A stretch of 58,987 bases of DNA from a bacterium (GCA_028698175.1 JAQVDU010000001.1:1-58987); one strand, 5' to 3'. Positions 5,378 to 9,650 are shown, counted from the stretch's first letter. Numbers and translations: made by a program. The notes: a model not told the origin generated them from the sequence alone.

Positions 5378-5547
5378 GTCCGATTGGGGCTGTGATTGTA
5401 AAGTCAGTTCAAAAAGACGCCGTGAGCCAGAGTGCTTCGCACGCCGTGAGCCATGGGCCGTGGGCAAAGAAAGTTAAGAGTTAATAGTTGTGAAAAGGCA
5501 TTGAGCAAAAATTTGAGATAAAAAAAACGGGGCTACTCCGGAGGGGC

Positions 5548-5575
5548 TTGACAAAAGACTCATTTTAAGTAAAAT
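5548..5575 (+). promoter_or_regulatory. Sigma70-like promoter of the HEPN cassette (TTGACA 5548-5553, 16-nt spacer, TAAAAT 5570-5575)
   Basis: The GGGGCTTGACAAAAG block is conserved at 7151-7165 and 8838-8852. Confidence 0.6.
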
Positions 5576-5608
5576 TATTAAAATAGATGAAAGAGGTAAA
5601 ATAGAGAA

Positions 5609-6031
5609 ATGAATTTTCTTAAACAAAAGGCAGATGCTAATAAAAAAGTTGCTGAATGGTGTGAAATAAATTGTTATTATGATGCAGCTGTCAATAGATT
5701 ATATTATTTTCTATTTCAGAATATAAAATATTATATCATGACAAATCAACTTGAAAAGGAATATAAGCTATTTGCAGCCTCTGAAAAAGCGAAATCCGTA
5801 TATAGCACACATAAAATTACTTATAATTTTATGTGCACAATATGTAAACAACAATCAAAAAATGCTGATGATTTAAAAGATTTCCACAATTTGAGGATGC
5901 TAATTAATCAAAGAAATTGTTCTGATTACGAAAATGACGTTCCTATTGTTGGTTCGGTGAACTATGAAAACCAATTTAAATCAAAGTATAGATTAGTTGA
6001 AAATGTTCTAAAGAAAATCAACATTTTGTGA
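5609..6031 (+). CDS. HEPN-domain protein (putative toxin)
   Basis: YYDAAVNRLYYFLFQ.. / ..STHK.. / ..LINQRNCSDYEN follows the helical HEPN pattern (A..a.YYa, S-x-H, R-x3-sDY). Confidence 0.6.
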   Translation: MNFLKQKADANKKVAEWCEINCYYDAAVNRLYYFLFQNIKYYIMTNQLEKEYKLFAASEKAKSVYSTHKITYNFMCTICKQQSKNADDLKDFHNLRMLINQRNCSDYENDVPIVGSVNYENQFKSKYRLVENVLKKINIL

Positions 6032-6038
6032 GGATATT

Positions 6039-6380
6039 ATGAAAGAGAAGCTATTAGAAATTAAGTCAAAACTTGAGAAAATGTATCCAACTGTGCATTT
6101 CGATTATTTTTATGATGAGAAAGATACTTTTCATGAAATATGGTATGACAATGCTGAAATGGATAAGGATAAGAGCTTTTCGGATAGTATTGGTAAATTT
6201 GTCAAAGAATTATTTGCTTTAGAATTCTACGATTTTTATATAGGATTTGATTATCTAAAAACTCAACAACTAATGGTTGATAAAAGTATTTTGCCAATAG
6301 AATATAATGCAAATAGAAAGCGAAAAACATATAGAGATTTCACCAACGATACTTTCGAACACATTTCAAAGGCGGCATAG
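6039..6380 (+). CDS. Hypothetical 113-aa protein (candidate antitoxin; no MNT motif)
   Basis: Lies between the HEPN and SecB-like genes with 7-9 nt gaps. No GS..DxD nucleotidyltransferase motif. Aromatic-rich C-terminal part. Confidence 0.5.
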   Translation: MKEKLLEIKSKLEKMYPTVHFDYFYDEKDTFHEIWYDNAEMDKDKSFSDSIGKFVKELFALEFYDFYIGFDYLKTQQLMVDKSILPIEYNANRKRKTYRDFTNDTFEHISKAA

Positions 6381-6389
6381 GTATTTTCA

Positions 6390-6803
6390 ATGGAAAAAAG
6401 TAAATTTCAATTTAAAAATCAGAAAATCGTCCAAGTAGAATTTTCTGTAAATAATAATTTTGATAGATCGCACAACGAAGTTCAATTAGAAATATCTATG
6501 AAAGAAAAGCATAAAAAAACATCAACATATCAAGCTTTAAGCGAATTGGAAATATCAGTTTTCAAAAAGGAATTTAATCCTCAAATTCCTTTTTACATTA
6601 GAATAATAGTTGAAGGCGAATTTAAGTGGGAAGAAAATATAGATAATAGTGAACAACTATTGAAAATAAATGCACCTGCATTGTTATTGTCTTATGCAAG
6701 AAGTATGATTACACAGTTAACAGTTTTTGCAGGGTTTGAACCTTTGATAATACCATTGGTTGATTTTACAAAAAAACCTGATAATGAAACAATAAAATCG
6801 TAA
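6390..6803 (+). CDS. SecB-like chaperone
   Basis: Aligns to E. coli SecB landmarks: FQFKNQKIVQVEFSV ~ FQIQRIYTKDISFEA, and APALLLSYARSMITQLTVFAGFEPLIIPLVDF ~ [32 protein letters not shown]. Confidence 0.8.
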   Translation: MEKSKFQFKNQKIVQVEFSVNNNFDRSHNEVQLEISMKEKHKKTSTYQALSELEISVFKKEFNPQIPFYIRIIVEGEFKWEENIDNSEQLLKINAPALLLSYARSMITQLTVFAGFEPLIIPLVDFTKKPDNETIKS

Positions 6804-6898
6804 ATATTTAGTTTGCTCGTATTATTCCCTTATTTCCTTAACAAATTACGAAAGGAAAAGCGTTTAACATATAGACATTTGAGTCTTTACGTGAGAAC

Positions 6899-6960
6899 AG
6901 AATTGATGGGGACACAGAATTGATGGGGACGGTGCATGACATTTGACATTTTCAATAGAA
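6899..6960 (+). repeat. GGGGACGGTG motif copy with an internal ~16-bp tandem duplication (AGAATTGATGGGGAC x2), followed by TGACATTTGACATTTTCAATAGAA
   Basis: Read directly. Related copies are at 113-156 (reverse), 5380-5410 (degenerate), 8654-8700 and 52553-52584 (reverse). Confidence 0.85.
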
Positions 6961-7077
6961 GAATCATTGGTCAAGAGACACCATAAGCCATGAGCCTTGA
7001 GCAGGGGGCAAAAACAATAACAAATACAGTTAATAGTTGATGGTTGAGAGTTGAAGGCGGGGACGGCACCAGACGAC

Positions 7078-7133
7078 GGGGGCAAAACAAAAACGCTGTG
7101 CGCCTTGAGCCATGAGCTTTGAGCATAGAAAAA
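7078..7133 (+). repeat. Intergenic repeat GGGGGCAAAACAAA(A/G)ACGCTGTG(C/T)GCCTTGAGCCATGAGCTTTGAGCA
   Basis: Differs from 9420-9475 by 2 substitutions and 1 indel. Degenerate TGAGC-containing relatives occur at 5420-5460 and 6984-7005. Confidence 0.85.
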
Positions 7134-8207: not shown

Positions 8208-8634
8208 AGAAAGAGAACCCGGAATATTTTTTGAAAAGGTTGTTTTGAAGAAATGTCTCTTTGAAATGCGTTCCGTGAAACAGTCGGAAATTAAAAAGCA
8301 AATGAAAATCGATTTTAAAATCGACAACAGATTGAATGATAAGAAAAACATCCTTTTCACTGATTTTAGTGTTGTCATAGGAAAAGATGACGAAGAGATG
8401 CCTTTCTTATTGGATGTAGTTGTTACAGGAATTTTTAAAAAGGACGATAAAAATGAGAATATGGATCTTGACACTTTCAGTAAAGGCAATGCGGCTGTTA
8501 TTTTGTTTCCATATCTAAGAGAGTTTATTTCAAATATTACCTTAAGAGCAGGATTTTCAAATCCGCTTGTATTGCCTCCCATGAATATCGCAAAGTTAAT
8601 GAAAGAAAAAAGCACCTTAACAACAAAAAAATAA
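8200..8634 (+). CDS. SecB-like chaperone (second copy)
   Basis: NAAVILFPYLREFISNITLRAGFSNPLVLPPMNI matches the SecB C-terminal signature. Overlaps the mqsA stop by 8 nt. Confidence 0.8.
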   Translation: MDREREPGIFFEKVVLKKCLFEMRSVKQSEIKKQMKIDFKIDNRLNDKKNILFTDFSVVIGKDDEEMPFLLDVVVTGIFKKDDKNENMDLDTFSKGNAAVILFPYLREFISNITLRAGFSNPLVLPPMNIAKLMKEKSTLTTKK

Positions 8635-8653
8635 TTTTTAAAGACTTGAATGA

Positions 8654-8700
8654 CCGATGGGACCGATGGGGACGGTGGTTGACATTTGACATTCTTAATT
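8654..8700 (+). repeat. GGGGACGGTG motif copy with a ~10-bp tandem duplication (CCGATGGGAC / CGATGGGGAC), followed by GGTTGACATTTGACATTCTTAATT
   Basis: Read directly, 20 nt after the SecB-like stop. A perfect 8-bp GC hairpin (8715-8722 / 8729-8736) follows. Confidence 0.85.
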
Positions 8701-8842
8701 GAATTGATTCTGCAGGGCGGACACACAGGTCCGCCCCTACGTTGATAGAATCTTCACATGAAAAATATCGCTAGTCAAATAAATGATAGATTCTTCACAC
8801 GAGAACAGCGAATAGAGGCGTTCAGAATGACGGACACGGGGA

Positions 8843-8870
8843 TTGACAAAAGAATTAAATTGAATAAAAT
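8843..8870 (+). promoter_or_regulatory. Sigma70-like promoter of the RHH/RelE cassette (TTGACA 8843-8848, 16-nt spacer, TAAAAT 8865-8870)
   Basis: Same spacing and hexamers as the promoter at 5548-5575. Confidence 0.6.
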
Positions 8871-8895
8871 AGAATAAATATGAACAGGAGGCAAA

Positions 8896-9129
8896 ATGGC
8901 AAAGACGCTTACTTTAAGAGTTGATGAAAAAACCTACGGGATATTCAAAAAAGCAGCCGAAAAAGAGAGGCGGAACATTTCCAATTTCATTGAAAATGCG
9001 ACTTATGAGTACATTGAAAAGGAGATGTATGTTTCGGATGTTGAGATGGAGGAGGTGAAAAAGTCATCCGCAAAGATACGCAAAGCCATAGATGAAGTAA
9101 AAAAAGGAAAATATAAGATTGTTAAATAG
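8896..9129 (+). CDS. Ribbon-helix-helix (CopG/RelB-like) antitoxin
   Basis: N-terminus KTLTLRVDEKTYGIFKKAAEKERRNISNFIENA is a typical RHH. AGGAGG RBS. Overlaps the toxin gene. Confidence 0.7.
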   Translation: MAKTLTLRVDEKTYGIFKKAAEKERRNISNFIENATYEYIEKEMYVSDVEMEEVKKSSAKIRKAIDEVKKGKYKIVK

Positions 9130-9391
9130 TTTTGAAATAGCAGAAACTATTTCCTTTGAGAAGGACAAGCAAAAGGGAAAGTATAAACATCTAAATGAAA
9201 AACTGGAAAGACAGATCTATCCTCAGTTAAGAGAGAATCCTTTTTGGGGCAGAAACATTAAAAAGCTCAAGGGAGAGTTTGAAGGAATTTACAGATACAG
9301 AATCGGAGATTTCAGAATACTTTACTTGATAGACAAGAAACGAGTGATTGTTTTCATGCTGAACATTATTGACAGAAAGGATTCTTACTAG
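9119..9391 (+). CDS. relE: RelE/ParE-family toxin
   Basis: C-terminal ..LKGEFEGIYRYRIGDFRILYLIDKKRVIVFMLNIIDRKDSY is the classical RelE/StbE signature. TTG start overlaps the antitoxin by 11 nt. Confidence 0.75.
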   Translation: MLNSFEIAETISFEKDKQKGKYKHLNEKLERQIYPQLRENPFWGRNIKKLKGEFEGIYRYRIGDFRILYLIDKKRVIVFMLNIIDRKDSY

Positions 9392-9419
9392 AGGCGGAGG
9401 CGAGAATACGCCATGAGCC

Positions 9420-9475
9420 GGGGGCAAAACAAAGACGCTGTGTGCCTTGAGCCATGAGCTTTGAGCAAGAAAAAT
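9420..9475 (+). repeat. Second copy of the GGGGGCAAAAC...GAGCCATGAGCTTTGAGCA repeat, at the end of the cassette array
   Basis: Near-identical to 7078-7133. No promoter block follows it. Confidence 0.85.
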
Positions 9476-9650
9476 ACAAAAACAAAACAAATACAAAAGA
9501 CCGAATAGAAGTATAGAGATTGCTTCTTCGAAGACTCATCGCAATGACCGGAAAAGTTGATAGATTCCTCAGGAAAGAGATAACTGCTGTGTACTTCAGA
9601 ATGACGGGAGAAAGAGCAAAATAATCAATATTCTATCAATAAAAATAGAA

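What the first reader, a model, noticed from the sequence alone, without database searches (positions are those of the whole stretch)
5378..9640. Three TA cassettes share a conserved promoter block and are separated by mosaic short-repeat spacers
Seen: each cassette is preceded by (A)ACGG..G(A/G)GGGG(C/A)TTGACAAAA(G/A) (5524-5557, 7130-7164, 8831-8852) with matching -10 spacing. The spacers are built from reshuffled blocks:
- 7078-7133 vs 9420-9475 differ by 2 substitutions and 1 indel
- AGTTAATAGTTG occurs at 5479-5490 and 7028-7039
- TTCAC(R)(Y)GAGAACAG..AAT.GA occurs at 6886-6906 and 8793-8814
- GTTGATAGA(A/T)TC(T/C)TCA occurs at 8741-8756 and 9556-9571
- (C/A)(G/C)TTCAGAATGACGG occurs at 8819-8833 and 9594-9608
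- degenerate (Y)(Y)(W)TGAGC tandem units occur in all spacers

The last spacer has repeats but no promoter, and it abuts the core gene terminator at 9651-9681.

Inference: the cassettes were assembled or are exchanged by a common mechanism that uses these spacers. This resembles an integron in layout but not in sequence features.
Basis: partly seen in the sequence, partly recalled or inferred. Interest (0 to 1): 0.6.

Follow-up and report, generated by a model that had tools for sequence, protein, structure and literature searches.

The report
TA cassette row with REP-like spacers
Three toxin-antitoxin operons in an uncultured WOR-3 bacterium are separated by patchworks of the genome's own short dispersed repeats, some of which bracket its REP-type transposase genes; this is not an integron, although whole cassettes do recur at other places.

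Summary
Three TA operons lie head to tail: a weak HEPN hit/113 aa/SecB-like, a 125-aa putative toxin/MqsA/SecB-like, and RHH/ParE. Each has a GGGG-N-TTGACAAAA promoter. The spacers are built from repeated blocks.

The blocks are dispersed intergenic repeats. Five tested modules occur in 52 of 604 intergenic regions, including upstream of groES and beside rpmB and rpsU. They recur in related WOR-3 genomes.

The GGGGACGGTG block brackets, as an inverted repeat, four of the genome's six long RAYT-like Y1 transposase genes. The GATTGC..GCAATGAC block and its heptamer arrays lie beside two short Y1 genes. The spacers are therefore REP/BIME-like mosaics.

There is no integron integrase and no attC core site, and only one block folds.

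Cassette shuffling is real. Cassette 2 has a 93% decayed copy on another contig and an 88% copy in a congener. Cassette 3 has a 92% copy. All sit in different contexts. Six of seven TA loci outside the window adjoin these modules.

Recombination at the repeats is the likely mechanism, but this is inferred.

The scan has reported similar REP-scaffolded, integron-like arrays before on other DNA (Planctomycete, Omnitrophota, Riflebacteria).

The parts
5378..5608 (+). Spacer 0. Contains a degenerate GGGGACGGTG-like start (about 5384-5412), a GAGCC-type heptamer array (5413-5472), a GTTRATR array including AGTTAATAGTTG (5474-5492), and promoter block P1 (5524-5575; -35 at 5548-5553, -10 TAAAAT at 5570-5575).
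   Evidence: (D1, D2, D8, D16). 5398-5487 is 84-93% identical to C69:3391-3305. GC is 41.6%. The degenerate B1 is read from the sequence only.
5609..6803 (+). Cassette 1: a 140-aa protein with a weak HEPN hit (5609-6031), a 113-aa protein with no family hit (6039-6380) and a SecB-like protein (6390-6803). It is a putative tripartite toxin-antitoxin-chaperone operon.
   Evidence: HEPN E=0.0017, below the cut-off; SecB PF02556 at 38 bits, above the cut-off. GC is 27.4%. No DNA copy was found elsewhere in the genome or in relatives.
6804..7173 (+). Spacer 1. Contains a B4-type fragment (6886-6906), a 17-nt tandem duplication (6897-6930), the B1 block GATGGGGACGGTGCATGACATTTGACATT (6922-6960), GAGCC heptamers (6974-7016), a GTTRATR array (7028-7055), block B2 (7077-7132), and promoter block P2 (7127-7165; -35 at 7155-7160) with the palindrome ACTATCATATGATAGT (7166-7181).
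   Evidence: (D1-D5, D20). GC is 41.9%.
7174..8634 (+). Cassette 2: a 125-aa putative toxin with no Pfam hit, placed as MqsR is (7174-7551; a TTG at 7202 after AGGAG is the likelier start, by inference), an MqsA-family antitoxin (7548-8207) and a SecB-like chaperone (8200-8634).
   Evidence: MqsA PF15731 at 44 bits, HTH_3, SecB at 46 bits. Copies: C69:2919-1433 at 93%, decayed; G002:C2:38523-40014 at 88%.
8635..8895 (+). Spacer 2. Contains the B1 block (8655-8703), hairpin block B5 (8703-8741; stem 8715-8738), a partial B4 (8741-8781), a full B4 (8782-8834), and promoter P3 (8838-8870; -35 at 8843-8848, -10 at 8865-8870).
   Evidence: D5, D6, D13; B5 -10 kcal/mol, z -2.86. GC is 39.8%.
8896..9391 (+). 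Cassette 3: a ribbon-helix-helix antitoxin (8896-9129) and a ParE/RelE-family toxin (9119-9391).
   Evidence: RHH_1 and DUF6290; ParE_toxin at 30 bits. An intact copy lies at C61:6289-5658, 92%. A 68% relative lies in G007:C22.
9392..9714 (+). Spacer 3. Contains a heptamer array with block B2b (9402-9474), block B6 GAATAGAAG..GATTGC..GCAATGAC (9484-9555), block B7 (9556-9608), and B9 with the terminator of the convergent gene (9609-9714; stem 9659-9673 on the minus strand). No promoter is present.
   Evidence: (B6 29 hits, B7 8 hits). 9536-9706 is about 99% identical to C69, while the flanks are 62% and 65-70% identical.
9715..10947 (-). Convergent LVIVD-repeat protein with a T9SS sorting tail. 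It is accessory, not core.
   Evidence: LVIVD, Por_Secre_tail. No match in G001 or G002 at E<=1e-20. A 5'-truncated paralogue at C69:521-913 ends at a B1 block.

Best explanation
The stretch is the right-hand part of an AT-rich flexible island (window 1-9714, or to 10947 if the accessory LVIVD gene is counted). It holds three independently promoted toxin-antitoxin operons. These are low-GC (27-35%).

The spacers between them have the genome's own GC (40-44%). They are BIME-like mosaics of this lineage's short dispersed repeats.

At least two module families are REP-type sequences partnered with Y1 (HUH) transposases of the RAYT kind. (1) B1 consists of the conserved core GGGGACGGTG followed by a variable 7-9-nt direct repeat. 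It brackets four of the six long RAYT-like genes as an inverted repeat. (2) B6, with its three kinds of heptamer arrays, lies next to two short Y1 genes.

Shown: the repeats are genome-wide and lineage-wide, they are linked to RAYT-like genes, and they are over-represented beside TA loci. Whole cassettes recur in other contexts.

Inferred: the repeats give portable homology. They may also give nicking sites for the Y1 enzymes. Through these, cassettes are duplicated, converted, deleted and joined by recombination. The result is an integron-like layout without integron machinery.

The shared P1/P2 promoter block is specific to the two SecB-type cassettes. It is best read as common descent or recombination between their 5' ends, not as a site of the exchange mechanism.
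For: Cassette identities.

Dispersal of the blocks:
- B6 has 29 BLAST hits, the B4/B7 family about 30 hits at E<=1 (26 at E<=0.02), B5 9, and the GGGGACGG[TC]G core 38, of which 31 are intergenic.
- 52 of 604 intergenic regions carry the five tested modules.
- 174 of 668 intergenic regions under a cruder gene call share some repeat with another one.
- The blocks also occur in G001 and G002 (same genus), G007, G009 and G012 (same family), and B1 in G023 (another family).
- The B1 14-mer is in 24 of 81 sampled genomes of the phylum, with up to 31 copies; the reversed control gives 0.

RAYT link:
- The genome has 8 Y1_Tnp genes. Their best NCBIfam match is REP_Tyr_transpos.
- Six are bracketed by 22-39-nt inverted repeats, four of them of the B1 type.
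- From the coordinates, Y1 genes in G006, G012 and G011 lie between oppositely oriented B1 copies.
- 22 of 24 B1-positive genomes hold Y1_Tnp, against 29 of 57 B1-negative ones (Fisher P=4e-4).

Cassette turnover:
- Cassette 2 has 93% and 88% copies and cassette 3 a 92% copy, all in different contexts. Homology starts at or just upstream of the promoter and ends at the last stop codon. A B1 block lies 2-35 nt after the SecB stop in all three copies of cassette 2.
- The C69 copy is decaying: a nonsense codon in the toxin gene and a 1-nt deletion in the antitoxin gene.
- A tract about 99% identical between the window and C69 starts in the 3' half of B6.
- Two 5'-truncated genes were checked here and end within about 12 nt of the GGGG end of a B1: C69:521-913 and window 52536-53225, whose homology to C44 starts at 52596.

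TA enrichment: 6 of 7 loci outside the window (P=1.2e-4), or 4 of 5 without the paralogues (P=3e-3).

A second array in G002:C41 (Bro-N, AAA_14/DUF4143, RhuM-Fic, ParE, MNT-HEPN, NTP_transf_8) has the same module families in its spacers.

GC contrast between cassettes and spacers.
Against: - Only B5 forms a significant hairpin. B1, B4/B7, B6 and B2 do not fold better than shuffles, so most modules are not classical palindromic REPs.
- The RAYT-like proteins score below the NCBIfam equivalog cut-off (59-74 bits against 80).
- Copy numbers are tens, not hundreds.
- B4/B7, the family most tied to TA loci, has no identified transposase partner.
- No recombination event was observed directly.
- The genome is a 150-contig MAG.
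- The TA enrichment could simply reflect that both TA genes and repeats accumulate in dispensable DNA with long intergenic gaps.
- Module orientation relative to genes is not fixed. In G002:C41 it is the reverse of the window, and B1 is co-oriented with the upstream gene in only 19 of 31 intergenic cases.
Confidence: 0.7

Rival explanations
1. It is a true or degenerate integron: a tyrosine recombinase inserts cassettes at attC-like sites in the spacers.
For: The cassettes are co-oriented. TA cassettes are typical of chromosomal integrons. A repeat follows each cassette.
Against: - The best TIGR02249 match in the genome is 76 bits, against a cut-off of 265. Only two Xer-like genes are present, and the one in the window scores as XerC/XerD.
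- No GTTRRRY site and a single RYYYAAC site occur in the spacers.
- Nine of ten blocks do not fold as ssDNA.
- Every cassette has its own promoter.
- The blocks are genome-wide.
Confidence: 0.03
2. The RAYT-like HUH enzymes actively capture and move cassettes. A unit bounded by co-oriented B1 blocks would be excised and pasted as single-stranded DNA, making a non-integron cassette system.
For: - B1 lies after each cassette in the window, in C61, C69 and G002.
- Six co-oriented B1 copies punctuate a gene row in G010:C3.
- Two checked truncated genes end within about 12 nt of a B1 GGGG end.
- A sharp identity switch occurs in the 3' half of B6.
- The genome has 8 or more Y1 genes, against the usual 1.3-1.8 RAYTs per replicon.
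Against: - B1 orientation is not fixed.
- B1 also sits at conserved places beside housekeeping genes, for example upstream of groES in three species.
- The B1 subtypes flanking copies of the same cassette differ.
- No excised circles or empty sites were seen.
- RAYTs are described as domesticated enzymes acting on REPs, not on cargo (PMC5581495, PMC3333891).
Confidence: 0.12
3. The spacer blocks are kept for function, as insulators: 3' mRNA protection or termination after each operon and upstream promoter elements before the next. They look repeated because the same regulatory parts are reused.
For: - B1 often lies 2-40 nt after stop codons.
- B5 is a stable hairpin.
- B4/B7 commonly lies 10-90 nt upstream of a TTGAC-type promoter and faces the same way as the downstream gene in about 19 of 28 cases, counted by hand.
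- B1 is conserved upstream of groES in three species.
- REP/BIMEs are known to affect termination and mRNA stability (abstract of PMC2817692).
Against: The orientation bias is weak. Most blocks lack structure. Copies inside truncated genes and at contig ends look like mobile DNA. The association with RAYT-like genes points to spread by transposition. This rival is compatible with the main explanation rather than exclusive of it.
Confidence: 0.1
4. The apparent paralogues are a binning or assembly artefact. C61 and C69 come from another strain, so nothing was duplicated within one genome.
For: The MAG has 150 contigs. Many contig ends fall in repeats. The copies are 92-93% identical.
Against: - Estimated contamination is 1.8%.
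- C69 is not collinear with the window; the shared segments are scattered and inverted.
- An independent MAG, UBA2202, shows the same cassette and modules in a third context.
- Even if the rival were true, it would still be cassette-level variation between strains.
Confidence: 0.1

Closest known systems
REP / BIME elements with RAYT (TnpA-REP) transposases, 'REPtrons' (Nunvar 2010, PMC2817692; Ton-Hoang 2012, PMC3333891; Bertels & Rainey 2011, PMC3116915; Bertels 2017, PMC5581495)
   Same: Short intergenic repeats occur in tens of copies. They are combined into mosaics with accessory motifs. Y1/HUH transposase genes are bracketed by inverted copies of their own repeat. Repeat and transposase co-occur across genomes. 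The repeats are inherited within a lineage.
   Different: - The main repeat (B1) is not a palindrome. It has a conserved 10-mer followed by a variable direct repeat.
- Copy numbers are tens, not hundreds.
- There are eight or more Y1 genes per genome instead of one or two.
- The proteins carry an extra C-terminal region of about 150 aa and score below the NCBIfam RAYT cut-off.
- Three kinds of heptamer tandem arrays are part of the mosaic.
- The repeats are clearly over-represented beside TA loci.
Chromosomal integrons carrying TA cassettes (for example the Vibrio superintegron; from my own knowledge and reference 20 of PMC5105189)
   Same: There is a row of co-oriented small cassettes, many of them TA, each followed by a repeat. 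The same cassette appears in different arrays.
   Different: There is no IntI and no attC structure or core sites. Each cassette has its own promoter. The repeats are genome-wide and belong to a different enzyme class (HUH, not tyrosine recombinase).
Neisserial intergenic mosaic elements (NIMEs, dRS3/RS repeats) and minimal mobile elements (from my own knowledge; not checked in the library)
   Same: Intergenic mosaics of short repeat units are concentrated around variable cassettes. They are thought to promote exchange by homologous recombination.
   Different: The sequences are unrelated and the phylum is different. No link to natural transformation is known here. The comparison was not tested with tools.
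[quoted passage not shown]
   Same: Cassette 2 has the known MqsRA + SecB-like gene order. Cassette 1 also ends in a SecB-like gene.
   Different: This concerns the cargo, not the spacers. The putative toxin of cassette 2 has no Pfam hit. Cassette 1 pairs a weak HEPN hit with an unknown 113-aa protein, a combination not among the three families named in that paper.

Membership tests
Integron | IntI-type tyrosine recombinase gene | tested here: not met
   The best TIGR02249 match is 76 bits, against a cut-off of 265. The two hits are Xer-like. The genome is 91% complete and the array's left end is missing.
Integron | attC sites: imperfect palindromes with RYYYAAC...GTTRRRY cores that fold as ssDNA | tested here: not met
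   No GTTRRRY site and only one RYYYAAC site occur in the four spacers. Nine of ten blocks have z between -0.9 and +0.95 against shuffles.
Integron | Mostly promoterless cassettes read from a common Pc promoter | tested here: not met
   P1 and P3 are 11/12 sigma-70 matches directly upstream of cassettes 1 and 3, and P2 has the same -35 block. TA cassettes of real integrons also carry their own promoters, so this feature weighs little.
REP-RAYT system (REPtron) | Transposase gene of the RAYT clade flanked by two copies of the repeat in inverted orientation | tested here: met
   Inverted repeats of 22-39 nt bracket the Y1 genes on C130, C129, C22 and C105 (B1 type) and on C108 and C12 (other repeats). 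By the coordinates, the same holds in G006, G012 and G011.
REP-RAYT system (REPtron) | Protein is a RAYT (NCBIfam NF047646 equivalog) | tested here: inconclusive
   REP_Tyr_transpos is the best hit for the three proteins tested, but at 59-74 bits, below the 80-bit cut-off. All eight genes pass the Pfam Y1_Tnp cut-off.
REP-RAYT system (REPtron) | The repeat is an extragenic palindrome (hairpin) | tested here: not met
   B1, B4/B7, B6 and B2 do not fold better than shuffles. Only B5 does (z -2.86). A separate palindromic family, GGGGACAGYAC..GTRCTGTCCCC, exists elsewhere in the genome.
REP-RAYT system (REPtron) | Presence and abundance of the repeat goes with presence of the transposase across genomes | tested here: met
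   22 of 24 B1-positive genomes hold Y1_Tnp, against 29 of 57 B1-negative ones (Fisher P=4e-4). The genomes are related, so the test overstates the association.
BIME | Intergenic clusters that combine REPs with other conserved motifs in variable order | tested here: met
   Block maps of the four spacers and of C69, C61, C66, C81 and G002.
BIME | Regularly spaced REPs in alternating orientation | tested here: not met
   Modules in the window's spacers are all co-oriented and irregularly spaced.
MITE | One unit with terminal inverted repeats and target-site duplications | tested here: inconclusive
   No terminal inverted repeats were seen for B4/B7 or B6. The modules combine independently. Empty-site versus filled-site comparisons were not obtained.
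TAC (toxin-antitoxin-SecB chaperone) | A type II TA pair and a SecB-like gene in one operon | tested here: met
   Cassette 2 has MqsA and SecB above their cut-offs, with overlapping genes. Cassette 1 has SecB above its cut-off, but its toxin and antitoxin are not assigned. The chaperone-addiction segment was not tested.

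The most novel reading that the evidence does not exclude
In WOR-3 bacteria, GGGGACGGTG-type repeats and their multi-copy RAYT-like HUH transposases form an active cassette-shuffling system. 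It would join, duplicate and delete TA and defence cassettes at the repeat's 5' end, as a single-strand analogue of the integron.
Probability: 0.12. Interest if true: 0.8.

Novelty: new variant of a known kind. Interest (0 to 1): 0.45.

Why it matters
The finding explains an integron-like layout without an integron. It assigns the spacers to a REP/BIME-type repeat system in WOR-3, a phylum without cultured representatives as far as I know.

The system has unusual features:
- a non-palindromic repeat made of a fixed 10-mer plus a variable direct repeat that differs between transposase paralogues;
- many transposase paralogues per genome;
- a measurable concentration at TA loci and at the breakpoints of truncated genes.

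If the repeats do drive cassette turnover, they would be a general way in which small genomes reshuffle defence and TA modules. The scan's similar cases in Planctomycetes, Omnitrophota and Riflebacteria suggest the pattern is widespread.

Tried and rejected
- Rfam search of 5200-9800 at E<=1: only a chance miRNA hit.
- Integron integrase search and attC core and fold tests: negative.
- General promoter rule for the G-run: rejected. Among 105 predicted TTGACA-N16-18-TAnnnT promoters, only 11 have three or more G at -6..-2. The G-run does occur at unrelated genes such as groES.
- Extended P1/P2 block heading other cassettes in the family: rejected. It was found only at the two TACs and at the G002 copy of cassette 2.
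- Orthologous empty site: not obtained. In G001 the orthologues of 11182-15183 adjoin a different gene with no modules. The LVIVD gene has no orthologue in G001 or G002. The G001 neighbour has no clear orthologue in this genome.
- First gene calls by ORF length, then by a hexamer model alone, mis-called the AT-rich cassettes. I used a combined call instead.
- PIN-domain toxins: none found.

Full report
**What is there**

The window is contig C146 of a 1.96-Mb, 150-contig MAG. It has 42% GC, 91% completeness and 1.8% contamination. Its congener G002 is 'candidate division WOR-3 bacterium UBA2202'.

Between 5378 and 9714 lie three co-oriented operons:
- Cassette 1 (5609-6803): a 140-aa protein with a weak HEPN hit, a 113-aa protein with no family, and a SecB-like protein.
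- Cassette 2 (7174-8634): a 125-aa protein with no Pfam hit, placed as MqsR is, then an MqsA-family antitoxin and a SecB-like protein. This is the known MqsRA-SecB type of TAC (PMC5105189).
- Cassette 3 (8896-9391): a ribbon-helix-helix antitoxin and a ParE/RelE toxin.

The cassettes have 27-35% GC. The four spacers have 40-44%, like the rest of the window at 42.6%. The cargo therefore looks foreign and the spacers look native.

**Check of the observation**

P1 and P3 are the two best sigma-70-like sites of the region. No promoter-like site lies in the last spacer, and a minus-strand terminator lies at 9673-9659.

P2 shares the -35 block, but its -10 lies inside a 16-nt palindrome and is weak. 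The extended block CCKGAGKGGCTTGACAAAA occurs only at the two SecB-type cassettes and at the G002 copy of cassette 2; the C69 copy carries it with one G fewer. The two SecB-like proteins share 35% identity over 68 residues.

The shorter GGG-N-TTGACA form also heads unrelated genes, including groES. It is not a general promoter rule, because only 11 of 105 predicted promoters have the G-run.

**The blocks are dispersed repeats**

Searching each block against the whole genome gave these hit counts:
- B6 (9484-9555): 29 BLAST hits.
- B4/B7 family (TGATAGATYCTTCA...TTCAGRATGAC; 8782-8834 and 9556-9608): about 30 nhmmer hits at E<=1, 26 at E<=0.02.
- B5 hairpin: 9 hits.
- GGGGACGG[TC]G core of B1 (6922-6960 and 8665-8703): 38 hits, 31 of them intergenic.

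Blocks B2 and B3 have only two copies each.

Fifty-two of 604 intergenic regions carry at least one of the five tested modules. Their neighbours include groES, rpmB (L28), rpsU (S21) and a tRNA. By my own reading of the sequences, they also include a cytidine deaminase and a tRNA deaminase. Many contigs end in these repeats.

The same blocks occur in both congeners and in other genera of the family. B1 also occurs in another family. The 14-mer GGGGACGGTGCTTG is in 24 of 81 sampled genomes of the phylum, with up to 31 copies, and the reversed control gives none.

An alignment of B6 neighbourhoods shows a modular mosaic. It contains B1, an A-rich hairpin region, AGTCC repeats, B6, three kinds of tandem heptamers (GAGCCNT, GCTGGTN/GGTACNR, GTTRATR), B4/B7, and in some places the 'R-M leader' that an earlier follow-up described.

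**Link to transposases**

The genome holds eight Y1_Tnp genes. Their best NCBIfam match is the REP-associated tyrosine transposase, at 59-74 bits against a cut-off of 80.

Six long genes (271-326 aa) are each bracketed by 22-39-nt inverted repeats. For four of them the repeat is of the B1 type, each with its own variable part. An example is AGGGACGGTGGTTGAAATAGTTGAAAT on both sides of C130:2637-3452.

Two short Y1 genes (C81, C138) have B6 copies and GAGCC, GTTGATA and GCTGGT heptamer arrays immediately downstream, in the same order as in spacers 1 and 3.

By the coordinates, Y1 genes in G006, G012 and G011 also lie between oppositely oriented B1 copies. B1 presence goes with Y1_Tnp presence across the phylum sample, 22 of 24 against 29 of 57, P=4e-4. 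The genomes are related, so this test is not independent.

A transposase gene flanked by two inverted REPs is the arrangement that defines REP-RAYT units, and BIMEs are mosaics built from them (PMC2817692, PMC3333891).

The differences are real. Only B5 folds significantly as ssDNA. B1 is a fixed 10-mer plus a direct repeat rather than a palindrome. Copy numbers are tens. RAYTs are usually present at 1.3-1.8 copies per replicon (PMC5581495), against eight or more here.

**Not an integron**

No integron integrase is present. The best match is 76 bits against a cut-off of 265, and both hits are Xer-like; the one in the window scores as XerC/XerD. The spacers have no attC core sites and no attC-like folding. 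Rfam finds nothing.

**Cassettes do move**

- Cassette 2 (7127-8616) recurs at 93% on C69 and at 88% in G002:C2. Cassette 3 (8768-9399) recurs at 92% on C61.
- The three contexts of cassette 2 differ. In the window it lies between cassettes 1 and 3. On C69 it lies between a 71-aa ORF and a truncated LVIVD paralogue. In G002 it lies between a 161-aa ORF and an 1828-aa gene.
- Homology begins about 10-30 nt upstream of the -35 and stops about 20 nt before the SecB stop codon. In all three copies a B1 block lies 2-35 nt after the stop, with differing variable parts.
- The C69 copy is decaying, with a nonsense codon in the toxin gene and a 1-nt deletion in the antitoxin gene.
- C69 shares the window's frame: block B3 on the left, and B6-B7-B9 plus the LVIVD 3' end on the right.
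- Window 9536-9706 is about 99% identical to C69. The tract starts in the 3' half of B6, whose loop differs between the two copies. It ends just before the LVIVD stop codon. The flanks are 62% and 65-70% identical. This is the signature of a recent conversion or transfer with an endpoint in a repeat.
- Two 5'-truncated genes checked here end within about 12 nt of the GGGG end of a reverse-oriented B1. They are the LVIVD fragment at C69:521-913 and the T9SS-tail fragment at window 52536-53225, whose homology to a 2255-aa gene on C44 starts at 52596. A third fragment, window 187-528, lies 40-62 nt from a B1.

**Enrichment beside TA loci**

Searches for ParE, PemK, PIN and SecB found ten TA loci when one weak ParE hit is included. 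Of the seven outside the window, six adjoin a module-bearing intergenic region, against about 16% expected (P=1.2e-4). Without the two paralogues it is four of five (P=3e-3).

Genes flanking the modules are more often short (34% against 22% under 150 aa) and of low GC (20% against 10%).

G002:C41 is a second array whose spacers hold B4/B7, B6, B1 and B5. Its cassettes are Bro-N, AAA_14/DUF4143, RhuM-Fic, unknown+ParE, MNT+HEPN and unknown+NTP_transf_8. There the modules are in the opposite orientation to the genes. In G010:C3, six co-oriented B1 copies punctuate a row of small accessory genes.

**Interpretation**

The blocks are genome-wide REP-like DNA, yet they are enriched at cassette boundaries.

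The best reading is that the spacers are REP/BIME-like mosaics of the lineage's own repeats. Their abundance around dispensable, foreign cassettes both reflects tolerance of insertions there and supplies dispersed homology. They may also supply Y1 nicking sites. Through these, cassettes are duplicated, converted, truncated and re-joined.

The mechanism is inferred; no event was observed. A more active role of the RAYT-like enzymes in moving cassettes is not excluded (about 0.12). B1 is also conserved upstream of the groES promoter in three species, with a different variable part in each. This argues for long vertical persistence with turnover, as described for REPINs.

**Limits**

- The genome is a fragmented MAG, and the array's left boundary lies beyond the contig start.
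- No clean empty site was found in relatives.
- The gene calls used for the statistics are my own.
- The scan has reported comparable REP-scaffolded, integron-like arrays in other phyla. I did not re-test those.

Noticed in passing
G000 contigs C130:2604-3505, C129:15262-16122, C22:9836-10783, C105:59-1010: Four RAYT-like genes are bracketed by inverted repeats that share (G)GGGACGG(T/A)G. Each has its own 7-9-nt direct repeat after it. Dispersed solo copies fall into matching subtypes, which suggests that the variable part sets the specificity of each paralogue.
   Followed up: partly
G000:C101:10490-10640; G001:C17 about 62730-62810; G002:C62 about 6620-6700: A B1 block lies at the same place upstream of the groES promoter in three species, but its variable direct-repeat part differs in each. 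G000 and G001 also share an inverted partner of another subtype.
   Followed up: partly
window 125-147 and 187-528; window 52536-52596; G000:C69:491-913: Three apparently 5'-truncated gene fragments (dinD-like, T9SS tail, LVIVD) lie next to the GGGG end of a reverse-oriented B1 block. The truncations of the T9SS-tail and LVIVD fragments were checked here. That of the dinD-like fragment was not.
   Followed up: partly
G000:C69:1433-2919: The paralogue of cassette 2 is a pseudogene pair. The toxin gene has a nonsense codon and the antitoxin gene a 1-nt deletion (at window position 7614), while the SecB-like gene is intact.
   Followed up: yes
G000:C81:4786-5421 and C138:2447-3073: Two short Y1 transposase proteins contain the peptide VETLQCNVS twice. 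It is encoded by a GTAGAGAC..GTCTCTAC hairpin repeat that also lies upstream of the genes. A REP-like hairpin appears to sit inside the coding sequence.
   Followed up: no
G000:C63:27951-28349, C94:4492-4584, C17:9747-9933, C13, C76, C109: A separate, truly palindromic repeat family, GGGGACAGYAC-N4-GTRCTGTCCCC, forms clusters. It shares its first eight bases with B1.
   Followed up: no
window 1-126: The first 126 bases of the contig are 99-100% identical to the ends of contigs C22, C23, C62, C66 and C90. They continue from a B1 block. This is a multi-copy element that breaks the assembly.
   Followed up: no
G002:C41:1-8424 (L025) and G002:C2:24650-26400: The congener has another array of six TA/defence-type cassettes with the same spacer modules. 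It also has a 1.7-kb stretch made almost only of repeat modules.
   Followed up: partly
G010:C3:274697-279129 (L033): Six co-oriented copies of GGGGACGGTGCTTGACTTTTTGACATTTT lie 330-1300 nt apart and punctuate a row of small accessory genes. Many G010 contigs have the motif 260-650 nt from an end.
   Followed up: partly
   Followed up: yes
window 5609-6803: Cassette 1 pairs a weak HEPN hit and an unassigned 113-aa protein with a SecB-like gene. This combination is not among the HigBA, HicAB and MqsRA TAC families named in PMC5105189. It is the subject of another finding and was not pursued here.
   Followed up: no
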